A stretch of 64,000 nucleotides of DNA. Origin: a virus (lineage: Duplodnaviria; Caudoviricetes). This document shows, one piece after another, positions 9,010 through 19,713 of the stretch; the stretch's first letter is position 1, and each line of letters opens with the position of its first letter. The DNA is taken from positions 256,001 through 320,000 of IMG/VR virus record IMGVR_UViG_3300037851_000141. One strand, given 5' to 3'. The position numbers and the translations under genes were made by a program. The notes below the pieces were generated by a model. The model did not search any database, was not told the DNA's origin, and worked only from the letters and a program-made list of their open reading frames with translations.

Positions 9010-9036
9010 TTGACTTCCAAAATATCAGGCTATAAT
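9010..9036 (+). promoter_or_regulatory. TTGACT-N15-TATAAT promoter
   Basis: Identical to the 8670 copy, with a shared downstream leader CTCGTCAAACAAA(A)GGCATA. Confidence 0.8.
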
Positions 9037-9082
9037 GCGCTCGTCAAACAAAGGCATACAACCCTCAACAAAGGAGAAACCC

Positions 9083-9388
9083 ATGCCTGCCGAAACCATG
9101 ATCAAGATGTTCGTTCGTAACCGCCGTGGTCGTCCTTGCGGAATCCTGCTTGGAACCAAGGTCAAGGGTCGAGTACAGATTGGCTACTCTCTCTGTAATA
9201 TGACTCTGGATAAGTGGAACCCCGTTCTTGGACAATCCATTGCTGAAGCTCGTATCGGCAAGGTGAACAAGAAGAATCTCCCGCACTCCGTAGCTAAGGT
9301 GTGGAGCCACTTTGAGGATCGCTGCGCTCGCTACTTCAAGGTAGGTAAGAAGACTGCCAAGAAGCGCGCCGCAAAAATTTCTGCTTGA
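9083..9388 (+). CDS. Basic phage hypothetical protein
   Basis: AAGGAG RBS before MPAETMIK; G/C-ending codons. Confidence 0.7.
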   Translation: MPAETMIKMFVRNRRGRPCGILLGTKVKGRVQIGYSLCNMTLDKWNPVLGQSIAEARIGKVNKKNLPHSVAKVWSHFEDRCARYFKVGKKTAKKRAAKISA

Positions 9389-9412
9389 CTTTGAGTAGAA
9401 AAGATATAAAAT
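9385..9412 (+). promoter_or_regulatory. Promoter of the ncRNA-tRNA(Leu)-tRNA(Ile2) transcript
   Basis: TTGACT-N16-TAAAAT. Confidence 0.65.
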
Positions 9413-9444
9413 ATAGGTGTTGAACAAGTATATATCTGTGGTAA

Positions 9445-9544
9445 GTCTCGCTCAATAGAGAGTCGGCCAATGTGAATAGATTCCGCGTTGAAGTAACATT
9501 GGCGTCCTTCGAAGGGGATACGCGGAACTCTTATTGGGTGAGAC
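9445..9544 (+). ncRNA. Unassigned structured RNA (closing stem plus two interleaved 8-bp helices)
   Basis: GTCTCGCTCAATA/TATTGGGTGAGAC with G-U pairs; GCCAATGT(9466)/ACATTGGC(9496); TTCCGCGT(9481)/ACGCGGAA(9520); small hairpin 9505-9518. Confidence 0.6.
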
Positions 9545-9550
9545 AGACAT

Positions 9551-9634
9551 GCCCGAATGGTGGAATTGGTAGACGCGAGGGACTCAAAATCCCTTGGCCG
9601 CAAGGTCGTGTGGGTTCGAGTCCCACTTCGGGTA
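9551..9634 (+). tRNA. tRNA-Leu(CAA), long variable arm, CCA not encoded
   Basis: GCCCGAA/TTCGGGT acceptor; GGGA-CTCAAAA-TCCC anticodon arm; GGTTCGAGTCC T arm. Confidence 0.93.
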
Positions 9635-9638
9635 CTAT

Positions 9639-9715
9639 GGGCCATTAGCTCAATTGGTTAGAGCATCCGACTCATAATCGGCAGGTTCTAGGTTCAAGTC
9701 CTAGATGGCCCACCA
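9639..9715 (+). tRNA. tRNA-Ile2 (CAU, lysidine type)
   Basis: GGGCCAT/ATGGCCC-A-CCA; CCGA-CTCATAA-TCGG arm as in ileX-type tRNAs; adjacent to tilS. Confidence 0.9.
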
Positions 9716-9717
9716 AT

Positions 9718-9752
9718 AAAAATCCTCAATCTTAACTGGTTGGGGATTTTTT
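9718..9752 (+). terminator. Intrinsic terminator after the tRNAs
   Basis: AAAAATCCTCAA...TTGGGGATTTTTT. Confidence 0.75.
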
Positions 9753-9803
9753 ATTTGACAAACCTCTTAAACACTATATACTCTGCCCAAGAAAGGCGCT
9801 TAT

Positions 9804-10415
9804 ATGATCCGGTTTCTTGGCAAGTTACCTCAAGGGAAGATTTATATTGCGTTATCTGGTGGTGCTGATTCAATGGCAGTATTATCATTTCTAAACAACG
9901 GTAATCGTCAAATTGAGTGTCTTTATTTCAATCATGATACTAAACACGGTCAAGATGCCGAATATTTTGTAAAAGGTTATTGTTCAACTCATAATATTGG
10001 TTTACATATTGGTCAGATTACTAAAGATAAAGAAAAAGGTCAGAGTGAGGAAGAGTATTGGCGTTTTCAGAGGTATGATTTCTTTTCTAAGTTTACTGAT
10101 GCTCCTATTGTTATGGCTCATCATTTGAACGACTGTGTTGAGACTTGGATTTTCACGGCATTACATGGTTCACCGCAATTGATTCCTTATATGAACGGCA
10201 ATGTTATTCGGCCATTCTTAATTACGCCAAAGAGTGAATTTTTACGTTGGAATGAACGGCATAATGTTCCATTTATTCAAGACGATAGTAATTTTGATAA
10301 TGTACATATGAGAAATTATATTCGTAACGTGTTGGTGCCAAATAGTTTACATGTTAATCCTGGTCTTGAAACTGTGATTAAGAAAAAGCTATTGTCTCAA
10401 GCCGTTTCTTCTTGA
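9804..10415 (+). CDS. tilS: tRNA(Ile)-lysidine synthetase (catalytic domain only)
   Basis: ALSGGADS PP-loop, HHLNDCVET, IRPFL, DDSNFD...RNYIRNVLVP. Confidence 0.92.
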   Translation: MIRFLGKLPQGKIYIALSGGADSMAVLSFLNNGNRQIECLYFNHDTKHGQDAEYFVKGYCSTHNIGLHIGQITKDKEKGQSEEEYWRFQRYDFFSKFTDAPIVMAHHLNDCVETWIFTALHGSPQLIPYMNGNVIRPFLITPKSEFLRWNERHNVPFIQDDSNFDNVHMRNYIRNVLVPNSLHVNPGLETVIKKKLLSQAVSS

Positions 10416-19545: not shown

Positions 19546-19573
19546 TTGACTCTACATAAATAGCTGATAGAAT
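19546..19573 (+). promoter_or_regulatory. Promoter of the interrupted tRNA
   Basis: TTGACT-N16-TAGAAT, 20 nt upstream of the tRNA. Confidence 0.75.
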
Positions 19574-19592
19574 ATGCGCGTTGAAAAGATAT

Positions 19593-19713
19593 ACCCGTGT
19601 AGCTCAGATGGCAGAGCGAGAGCCTTCTGCGGAGATTATAGGAATATATTGGGTTCGAATCCCAATCTCTGCTCCAAAGCTCTAGGTCGGAGGTTCAAGT
19701 CCTCTCACGGGCG
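19593..19713 (+). tRNA. Interrupted tRNA, most simply Arg(UCU) (alternative register Trp(CCA)), with a 48-nt insert in the anticodon loop
   Basis: ACCCGTG/CACGGGC acceptor, GCTC/GAGC D stem, AGAGC/GCTCT anticodon stem, GGAGG-TTCAAGT-CCTCT T arm. Deleting 19629-19676 gives the loop CT-TCT-AA. Confidence 0.85.
19629..19676 (+). ncRNA. tRNA-Gly-like minihelix nested in the anticodon loop
   Basis: GCGGAGA / T-TATA-GGAA-TATA / TTGGG-TTCGAAT-CCCAA / TCTCTGC-T-CCA. Confidence 0.8.

What the first reader, a model, noticed from the sequence alone, without database searches (positions are those of the whole stretch)
9445..9544. Pseudoknot-like RNA leading the tRNA-Leu/tRNA-Ile2 transcript
Seen: a roughly 17-bp closing stem with G-U pairs encloses two perfect, interleaved 8-bp helices (A-B-A'-B' order) with a small hairpin between A' and B'. 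It ends 6 nt before tRNA-Leu and has a promoter upstream. This is either a pseudoknot or a two-state switch. The topology echoes HDV-like ribozymes, but the core residues do not match. Inference: a processing element, ribozyme or independent small RNA.
Basis: partly seen in the sequence, partly recalled or inferred. Interest (0 to 1): 0.6.

Follow-up and report, generated by a model that had tools for sequence, protein, structure and literature searches.

The report
Orphan pseudoknot-capable phage tRNA leader RNA
A 332-kb uncultured phage starts its leucine/isoleucine tRNA transcript with a tightly folded 100-base RNA module that matches no known RNA family and has no relatives in the databases I could reach, so its structure looks real but its job is inferred, not shown.

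Summary
Window 9445-9544 (+) has a 17-bp closing stem, two perfect interleaved 8-bp helices and a small hairpin. It ends 6 nt before tRNA-Leu(CAA). It lies inside a self-contained unit: promoter, leader, tRNA-Leu, tRNA(CAU), terminator.

The fold is strand-specific (-37.7 against -26.6 kcal/mol), and all four G-U pairs are on the transcribed strand. The interleaved helices alone are not beyond genome-wide chance. The closing stem is, so the whole architecture is.

In nested folds helix A dominates and both strands of helix B stay unpaired. An H-type pseudoknot therefore fits better than a two-state switch.

It matches no Rfam family. It lacks the P3/L3 hairpin and the J4/2 cytosine of HDV-like ribozymes. 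No homologue turned up in any collection I could reach, so covariation could not be tested.

The flanks match the short standard leader of this phage's other tRNA operons, so the element looks like an inserted module.

My best reading is a leader domain released by RNase P. It would act in cis or persist as a stable by-product, like T4 RNA C and D. The phage encodes a Ro60/Rsr protein but no canonical Y RNA, which leaves a speculative Y-like role open.

The parts
9385..9412 (+). sigma70-like promoter TTGACT-N16-TAAAAT
   Evidence: 10 of 12 matches. The same TTGACT-N16-TA(G/A)AAT-N4-G(C/T)GTTGAA arrangement heads the tRNA-Pro and tRNA-Arg(UCU) operons.
9417..9424 (+). GTGTTGAA box, the probable start of the transcript
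   Evidence: it lies 4 nt after the -10 hexamer in three tRNA operons of this phage. The start site is inferred, not mapped.
9424..9436 (+). 13-mer ACAAGTATATATC, a box shared by tRNA-operon leaders
   Evidence: 4 exact copies in 332 kb. Three of them lie just upstream of tRNA operons on the tRNA strand. Its function is unknown (second promoter or processing site).
9445..9462 (+). closing stem, 5' strand (G14 bulged)
   Evidence: pair probabilities 0.9-1.0.
9466..9473 (+). helix A, 5' strand (GCCAAUGU)
   Evidence: p = 0.82.
9481..9488 (+). helix B, 5' strand (UUCCGCGU), lying in the 22-nt loop of hairpin A
9496..9503 (+). helix A, 3' strand (ACAUUGGC)
9505..9518 (+). small hairpin UCCUU-CGAA-GGGGA (two G-U pairs); contains the 10-nt palindrome CCUUCGAAGG
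   Evidence: p = 0.55-0.95.
9520..9527 (+). helix B, 3' strand (ACGCGGAA), directly abutting the closing stem
9528..9544 (+). closing stem, 3' strand
9545..9550 (+). 6-nt single-stranded spacer AGACAU, with U at -1 of the expected RNase P site
   Evidence: RNase P cleavage is inferred from general tRNA biology.
9551..9635 (+). tRNA-Leu(CAA)
   Evidence: 53.6 bits.
9639..9715 (+). tRNA with anticodon CAT, probably tRNA-Ile2 (lysidine)
   Evidence: 72.2 bits. TilS lies next to it, and tRNA(CAT)-TilS linkage recurs in related loci.
9718..9757 (+). intrinsic terminator: 14-bp hairpin plus a U-run
   Evidence: -17.4 kcal/mol, z = -4.8.
9804..10415 (+). short-form TilS (203 aa, PP-loop domain) with its own promoter at 9755-9782

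Best explanation
The element is a genuine, compactly folded RNA domain of about 100 nt, inserted into the otherwise standard short 5' leader of the phage's tRNA-Leu(CAA)/tRNA-Ile2 operon.

Proposed order of events:
1. Transcription starts at the sigma70-like promoter, near 9417-9421.
2. Hairpin A folds first, then the small hairpin.
3. B' pairs with B in the loop of hairpin A, giving an H-type pseudoknot.
4. The 17-bp closing stem clamps the domain shut.
5. RNase P cuts 6 nt downstream, at the 5' end of tRNA-Leu. This frees a leader RNA of about 130 nt whose 3' end is protected by the long stem.

I think it most likely acts in cis. It would keep the long leader from mispairing with tRNA-Leu, and it would present a defined processing substrate. 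The closing stem stacked on helix B gives about 25 bp of helix, the size class RNase III cuts. Alternatively, or in addition, it persists as a stable by-product RNA like T4 RNA C and D. It is not catalytic.

Shown: the structure, its strand specificity, the transcription-unit signals, and the absence of the element from known families. Inferred: the start site, RNase P release, pseudoknot formation, and the role.
For: - Anatomy and statistics.
- Strand asymmetry: -37.7 against -26.6 kcal/mol. All 4 G-U pairs lie on the + strand, which is the strand of both tRNAs.
- GC content is 50% in a 35% GC genome, like the tRNAs.
- The unit is self-contained: promoter, two tRNAs, terminator. TilS has its own promoter.
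- In the nested ensemble A has p = 0.82, and both B strands stay unpaired and are perfectly complementary.
- The flanks ATATCTGTGGTAA...AGACAT match the short leaders ATATCTG(C)GGCAAC...CAT of the tRNA-Ser and tRNA-Pro operons, so the element reads as an inserted module.
- Two other tRNA operons of the phage (Pro 179024, Ser 197792) also place a stable hairpin between promoter and first tRNA.
- The phage belongs to the T4 superfamily by its terminase. T4 co-transcribes the stable RNAs C and D, of unknown function, with its tRNAs (PMC9697503).
Against: - No homologue was found anywhere, so there is no covariation and no evidence of selection on the fold.
- Four relatives with the same tRNA-Leu(CAA)-tRNA(CAT)-TilS order have only a leader of about 40 nt and no element. 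The module is therefore dispensable for these tRNAs.
- There are no expression data: the phage is uncultured.
- The interleaved helices alone are not beyond genome-wide chance.
- The element starts about 25 nt after the inferred start site, so it is not a classical 5'-terminal stabiliser, unless the 13-mer box is a second promoter.
- The phage encodes no RNase III of its own, and the host's enzymes are unknown.
Confidence: 0.5

Rival explanations
1. It is a free-standing, trans-acting small RNA made by tRNA-punctuated processing. In particular it could be a non-canonical Y-like RNA that partners the phage's own Ro60/Rsr protein, or a decoy for a host RNA-binding factor.
For: - General Y-RNA architecture is met: about 100 nt, and a long stem formed by the 5' and 3' ends with a bulge, closing a complex head. 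PMC4201824 gives 80-130 nt and a long stem carrying the Ro60 site.
- The phage encodes a full-length Ro60 orthologue at genome 189007-190695 (TROVE plus Ro60 vWA; D. radiodurans Rsr 2nvo, E = 7.6e-14).
- It has no canonical YrlA anywhere in the genome or beside rsr.
- In 6 of the 12 other viral contigs I scanned, rsr sits next to tRNA clusters, and none of the 12 has a YrlA at the gathering score.
Against: - The element lies about 75 kb from rsr, whereas reported YrlA genes lie within 4 kb (PMC4201824).
- The GNCGAAN0-1G motif is absent from the 5' strand of the stem. The only near-match (UUCGAAG) is in the internal hairpin and is expected by chance.
- There are no T-, D- and acceptor-like hairpins in YrlA order.
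- The Rfam YrlA model does not hit the element.
- Model R1 found nothing in 80 Rsr-bearing viral loci.
Confidence: 0.15
2. It is a functionless or selfish palindromic insertion (MITE-like, or a duplication relic of leader sequence) that happens to fold well and is tolerated in a leader that RNase P discards.
For: - It is a discrete 100-bp module with terminal inverted repeats (GTCTC...GAGAC), inserted in a standard leader.
- It is absent from relatives with the same gene order.
- It is single-copy, with no homologue in any collection.
- Its internal stretch AATAGATTCCGCGTTGAAG resembles the promoter-start box TAGAAT-N4-GCGTTGAA of other tRNA operons.
Against: - The mismatches in the stems are all G-U on the transcribed strand: 4 of 4, with 11 kcal/mol strand asymmetry. 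That points to RNA-level selection rather than a DNA palindrome.
- There is no target-site duplication and no second copy.
- Three independent perfect or near-perfect helices plus a clamp is more order than a simple inverted-repeat insertion needs.
Confidence: 0.2
3. It is a self-cleaving ribozyme, HDV-like or of a new class, that processes the leader.
For: The nested double-pseudoknot-like order (A, B, A', hairpin, B') echoes P1, P2, P1', P4, P2' of HDV-like ribozymes.
Against: - No ribozyme family of Rfam 15 matches, even at E<=10.
- The 7 nt between B and A' cannot form P3/L3.
- J4/2 is a single U and lacks the catalytic C.
- No hammerhead, twister, pistol or hatchet core motifs were seen.
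- RNase P already provides the cut that is needed.
Confidence: 0.03
4. It is a two-state switch or attenuator, in which helices A and B are mutually exclusive and control tRNA output.
For: The best nested folds with A (-37.7) and with A blocked (-35.5) differ by only 2.2 kcal/mol.
Against: - A and B do not compete for the same nucleotides. In the A state both B strands are free, so the two helices can coexist.
- No terminator or U-run follows the element.
- There is no known aptamer.
- There is no leader ORF with a ribosome-binding site.
Confidence: 0.05
5. It is a DNA-level signal, such as a protein-binding palindrome, an origin or a recombination site, rather than an RNA.
For: It has inverted repeats and the 10-bp palindrome CCTTCGAAGG.
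Against: - The G-U pairs become A-C mismatches on the other strand and in DNA.
- The arms lie 66 bp apart.
- It sits inside a transcribed leader.
Confidence: 0.05

Closest known systems
Phage T4 RNA C and RNA D (species 1 and 2 stable RNAs of the tRNA gene cluster)
   Same: They are small (119-139 nt), strongly folded RNAs of unknown function. They are co-transcribed with phage tRNAs in a T4-superfamily genome and released by tRNA-processing enzymes (PMC9697503).
   Different: - The T4 RNAs lie at the 3' end of the cluster, not in the 5' leader.
- RNA C has a T-arm and acceptor-like ends.
- There is no sequence or model similarity.
- No pseudoknot is described for them.
Bacterial and phage Y RNAs (YrlA, Rfam RF02553) bound by Ro60/Rsr
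   Same: Size is about 100 nt. A long, bulged stem formed by the two ends closes a complex head. The phage has an Rsr gene but no canonical YrlA.
   Different: - No GNCGAAN0-1G motif in the 5' strand.
- No T, D and acceptor-like hairpins.
- Not within 4 kb of rsr.
- No hit by the Rfam model (PMC4201824).
HDV-like self-cleaving ribozymes
   Same: Interleaved helices with a hairpin between the third and fourth strands.
   Different: No P3/L3, no P1.1, no catalytic C in J4/2. It has an extra 17-bp closing stem. No Rfam match.
sRNAs and RNA 3' ends generated from tRNA precursors by RNase P or RNase E (for example 3'ETS-leuZ in E. coli; MALAT1-mascRNA)
   Same: tRNA-processing cuts define the end of a neighbouring non-tRNA RNA, which a stable structure then protects. 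This comparison rests on my general knowledge, and MALAT1 appears only as a title.
   Different: Those are trailers, spacers or eukaryotic lncRNAs. Here it is a 5' leader, and release is inferred only.
Other structured leaders in front of phage tRNA operons noted by this scan (for example e1-5185927)
   Same: A promoter-proximal folded leader fused to the first tRNA of a phage tRNA operon, with a proposed H-type pseudoknot.
   Different: A different phage group. No sequence relationship was tested or seen. Those notes are unchecked leads.

Membership tests
HDV-like ribozyme | P3 hairpin with L3 between the P2 5' strand and the P1 3' strand | tested here: not met
   Only 7 nt (UGAAGUA, element 45-51) lie between B and A'. 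That is too short for a 3-bp stem plus loop.
HDV-like ribozyme | Catalytic cytosine in J4/2 | tested here: not met
   The junction between the hairpin and B' is the single nucleotide U75.
HDV-like ribozyme | Match to the covariance models of the family | tested here: not met
   No hit at E<=10 over 9350-9760.
HDV-like ribozyme | Self-cleavage at the 5' end of P1 | not testable with these tools
   This needs an in-vitro cleavage assay.
Y RNA / YrlA | 80-130 nt, with a long stem formed by the 5' and 3' ends | tested here: met
   100 nt; 17-bp closing stem with a bulge.
Y RNA / YrlA | GNCGAAN0-1G (Ro60-contact motif) near the 5' end | tested here: not met
   Absent from element 1-21. The only CGAA is in the internal hairpin loop, preceded by UU rather than GN (motif from PMC4201824).
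Y RNA / YrlA | tRNA-like T, acceptor-like and D hairpins; match to RF02553 | tested here: not met
   The only weak YrlA hits are the tandem tRNAs, a false-positive type named in PMC4201824.
Y RNA / YrlA | Encoded within about 4 kb of rsr on the same strand | tested here: not met
   rsr lies at genome 189007-190695 and the element at 265445-265544. They share a strand but are about 75 kb apart.
Y RNA / YrlA | Binds Ro60/Rsr | not testable with these tools
   This needs a binding or co-purification experiment.
tRNA / tRNA-like gene | Cloverleaf recognised by tRNA models | tested here: not met
   ARAGORN and RF00005 find only the two downstream tRNAs.
T4 RNA C / RNA D | Sequence or structure homology to the T4 RNAs | tested here: not met
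   Model R1, run with filters off on the T4 tRNA region, gave only noise of 10 bits or less. The folds differ.
Intrinsic terminator / attenuator | GC-rich hairpin followed by a U-run | tested here: not met
   The closing stem is followed by AGACAUGCCC. The real terminator lies after the second tRNA.

The most novel reading that the evidence does not exclude
The element is the phage's missing Y-type RNA. It would be a pseudoknotted, non-tRNA-like partner of the phage-encoded Ro60/Rsr, produced by RNase P punctuation from a tRNA operon leader. That would link Ro60 quality control to phage tRNA supply. A weaker alternative is a new class of self-cleaving or protein-recruiting pseudoknot.
Probability: 0.1. 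Interest if true: 0.7.

Novelty: new variant of a known kind. Interest (0 to 1): 0.35.

Why it matters
Large phages carry many tRNA genes, but how their precursors are built and processed is little studied outside T4. The T4 stable RNAs that ride with the tRNAs are still without a function after fifty years.

This element is a clean, testable example of an elaborate RNA module placed exactly one RNase P cut away from a tRNA. It sits in a phage that also carries tRNA-shaped introns and a Ro60 protein with no identified RNA partner.

If it proves to be stable and protein-bound, it would add a new way of making phage small RNAs. If it is only a tolerated insertion, it shows how freely tRNA leaders can accumulate structure. 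At present it is a single sequence with no relatives, which limits what can be claimed.

Tried and rejected
Searches that found nothing on the element:
- Rfam at gathering score and at E<=10.
- blastn against 50,697 phage records; only the tRNAs matched.
- Exact and degenerate DNA patterns in viral contigs for the element core and for the leader box: no match.
- The flanking 117-aa protein in viral contigs: none.
- TilS relatives: 80 viral loci and 18 metagenome loci, all 57% identity or less. Four have the same Leu(CAA)-tRNA(CAT)-TilS order but only a leader of about 40 nt.
- Terminase relatives in viral contigs: none.
- Covariance model R1 (closing stem, helix A and hairpin). It found only itself in the phage genome. 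It found nothing in four jumbo-phage records, 99 TilS loci, 80 Rsr loci or the T4 tRNA region.

Tools not used or limited:
- No pseudoknot-capable folding program was available, so pseudoknot stability is an estimate from helix energies.

Readings considered and rejected:
- A small ORF, 9472-9648: it has a GTG start and runs into the tRNA.
- A cryptic tRNA.
- A terminator.
- A type III antitoxin: there are no tandem repeats and no toxin gene.
- A retron: there is no reverse transcriptase.
- A MITE with copies elsewhere: it is single-copy.
- Similarity to the mini-tRNA intron of tRNA-Arg(UCU) at 19593-19713: none by eye.

A scan for GC-rich islands to find other ncRNA candidates was too unspecific to use.

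Full report
WHAT IS THERE

The window is bases 256001-320000 of a 331,849-base IMG/VR virus record, estimated 92% complete. Its large terminase is 30-34% identical to those of T4-like phages. It is therefore a distant member of the T4 superfamily, with no close relative in the collections.

Around the finding the + strand reads, in order:
- an orphan 117-aa ORF (9035-9388);
- a sigma70-like promoter, TTGACT-16-TAAAAT (9385-9412);
- an AT-rich tail of about 25 nt;
- the 100-nt element (9445-9544);
- the spacer AGACAU;
- tRNA-Leu(CAA) (9551-9635) and a tRNA with anticodon CAT (9639-9715);
- a strong intrinsic terminator (9718-9757; -17.4 kcal/mol, z = -4.8);
- a second promoter (9755-9782) and a 203-aa PP-loop protein of the TilS type (PF01171, 4e-32).

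The CAT tRNA sits beside TilS here and in many related loci.

RNAfold gives -37.7 kcal/mol, z = -3.64.

I separated the statistics.
- Two interleaved perfect 8-bp helices are rare in shuffles of the core: 3 in 200,000.
- A scan of the whole 332-kb genome nevertheless finds four such loci, against 2.2 expected in shuffled genomes. That feature alone would not single this place out. The other three loci are AT-rich stretches.
- What does single it out is the closing stem. Its duplex energy of -22.3 kcal/mol was reached by none of 50,000 flank shuffles and by 1 of 50,000 genomic windows of the same geometry.
- The hairpin and the location add to this.

IT IS AN RNA-LEVEL FEATURE OF THE TRANSCRIBED STRAND

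- The reverse complement folds 11 kcal/mol worse, at -26.6.
- All four non-Watson-Crick pairs are G-U on the + strand.
- The element is 50% G+C in a 35% G+C genome, like the tRNAs next to it.

PSEUDOKNOT RATHER THAN SWITCH

- In the pseudoknot-free ensemble helix A has probability 0.82 and helix B 0.01. But A leaves both B strands single-stranded, one in A's 22-nt loop and one in the multiloop. B does not compete with A and can simply be added.
- The loop lengths (7, 7 and 16 nt) are ample for an H-type pseudoknot with 8-bp stems.
- B' abuts the closing stem without a gap, so B can stack on it to give about 25 bp of near-continuous helix.
- The best nested alternatives differ by about 2 kcal/mol.
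- I had no pseudoknot folding program, so formation of B remains an inference.

WHAT IT IS NOT

- No Rfam 15 family matches it, even at E<=10.
- It is not a tRNA.
- It is not a terminator: no U-run follows it.
- It fails the defining features of HDV-like ribozymes. There is no room for P3/L3, and the junction carries a single U where the catalytic C should be.
- It shows no likeness to the T4 stable RNAs C and D.
- It shows no likeness to the mini-tRNA intron of this phage's tRNA-Arg.

NO RELATIVES, SO NO COVARIATION TEST

I looked for relatives through the element itself, both flanking genes, the terminase, TilS and Rsr. I also used a covariance model built from the element (R1). The calls are listed under Tried and rejected. 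Nothing turned up.

The phage has no close kin in the collections I could reach. 

The four more distant phages with the same Leu(CAA)-tRNA(CAT)-TilS order have a leader of about 40 nt and no element. The module is therefore lineage-specific and not needed for these tRNAs as such.

CONTEXT WITHIN THE PHAGE

Comparing the leaders of all the tRNA operons of the genome gave the most useful clue.
- Three operons (Pro, Arg-UCU and this one) share TTGACT-N16-TA(G/A)AAT-N4-G(C/T)GTTGAA. Their transcripts therefore probably start at GYGUUGAA.
- The 13-mer ACAAGTATATATC occurs exactly four times in 332 kb, far more than I would expect by chance. Three of the copies lie just upstream of tRNA operons.
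- The box ATATCTG(Y)GG(Y)AA then runs on into ...CAT|tRNA within 20 nt in the Ser and Pro operons.
- Here the same box is followed by the 100-nt element and only then by AGACAT|tRNA. The element thus looks like a discrete module inserted into a standard short leader.
- Two other operons (Pro at 179024, Ser at 197792) carry simpler stable hairpins between promoter and first tRNA. Structured leaders are a habit of this phage, and this one is the most elaborate.

MECHANISM

I commit to a leader domain that folds co-transcriptionally. Hairpin A forms first, then the small hairpin, then B' pairs into A's loop, and the clamp closes last. RNase P then frees it by cutting at 9550/9551. U at -1 and a 6-nt single-stranded spacer suit that enzyme; this rests on general knowledge, not on a test.

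The released RNA of about 130 nt would end 6 nt after a 17-bp helix and should resist 3' exonucleases.

Whether its value lies in cis or in trans cannot be told from one sequence. In cis it could insulate tRNA-Leu folding or offer a long-helix entry site for RNase III-type processing. In trans it could be a stable RNA like T4 RNA C and D, which remain of unknown function (PMC9697503). A tolerated, functionless insertion stays a serious rival at 0.2.

THE MOST INTERESTING OPEN READING

- The phage encodes a full-length Ro60/Rsr orthologue (homologues up to 73% identical).
- It has no canonical YrlA anywhere.
- In 6 of the 12 other viral contigs I scanned, rsr lies beside tRNA clusters, and none of the 12 has a YrlA at the gathering score.
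- The element has the general Y-RNA build: about 100 nt, with a long bulged terminal stem and a complex head.
- It fails the specific YrlA criteria of PMC4201824 (motif, hairpin order, distance to rsr).
- I rate a Y-like role at roughly 0.1.

VERDICT

This is a real, unusually ornate but orphan leader RNA. It is a new variant of the known kind 'structured RNAs riding with phage tRNA operons'. Ribozyme activity is unsupported, and the function is inferred only. Interest is moderate (0.35), limited by the lack of any homologue.

Noticed in passing
window 9385-9436; also genome 175782, 178945-179023, 198335, 275553-275592 (window about 19553-19592): The tRNA operons of this phage share promoter and leader boxes. 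One is TTGACT-N16-TA(G/A)AAT-N4-G(C/T)GTTGAA. The other is the 13-mer ACAAGTATATATC: 4 exact copies in 332 kb, 3 of them just upstream of tRNA operons. In one case the 13-mer ends only 4 nt before tRNA-Met. It could be a phage-specific promoter or a processing signal.
   Followed up: partly
outside the window: genome 189007-190695 (+), locus L115:3951-5696: The phage encodes a Ro60/Rsr orthologue (TROVE plus Ro60 vWA). No canonical YrlA Y RNA lies beside it or elsewhere in the genome. In 6 of 12 other Rsr-bearing viral contigs scanned, rsr lies next to tRNA clusters, and none of the 12 has a YrlA at the gathering score.
   Followed up: partly
window 9035-9388 (+): The 117-aa ORF just upstream is 50.6% G+C in a 35% G+C genome. 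It has a basic C-terminus, no Pfam or PHROG match, and a single 89% homologue in 5.8 billion proteins. It may be a recent foreign acquisition.
   Followed up: partly
window 9804-10415 (+): TilS here is a 203-aa short form: the PP-loop catalytic domain only, without the C-terminal tRNA-binding domains of bacterial TilS. More than 100 homologues of similar length exist in phage and metagenome data, often next to a tRNA(CAT).
   Followed up: partly
outside the window: genome about 180500-180590 and about 198590-198700: The regions upstream of tRNA-Met (180590) and tRNA-Glu (198699) contain T-arm-like pieces (GGTGGTTCAATTCCACC; GAGGGTTCGAATTC). ARAGORN did not call them. They may be degenerate or miniature tRNA-like elements.
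   Followed up: no
window 9506-9515: The small hairpin contains the perfect 10-nt palindrome CCTTCGAAGG, in a register different from the hairpin's own pairing. It could allow RNA-RNA dimerisation or could be a DNA site.
   Followed up: no
window 19593-19713: The tRNA-Arg(UCU) gene carries a 48-nt CCA-ended mini-tRNA insert in its anticodon loop. It was already reported by this scan. Its sequence is unrelated to the element studied here.
   Followed up: partly
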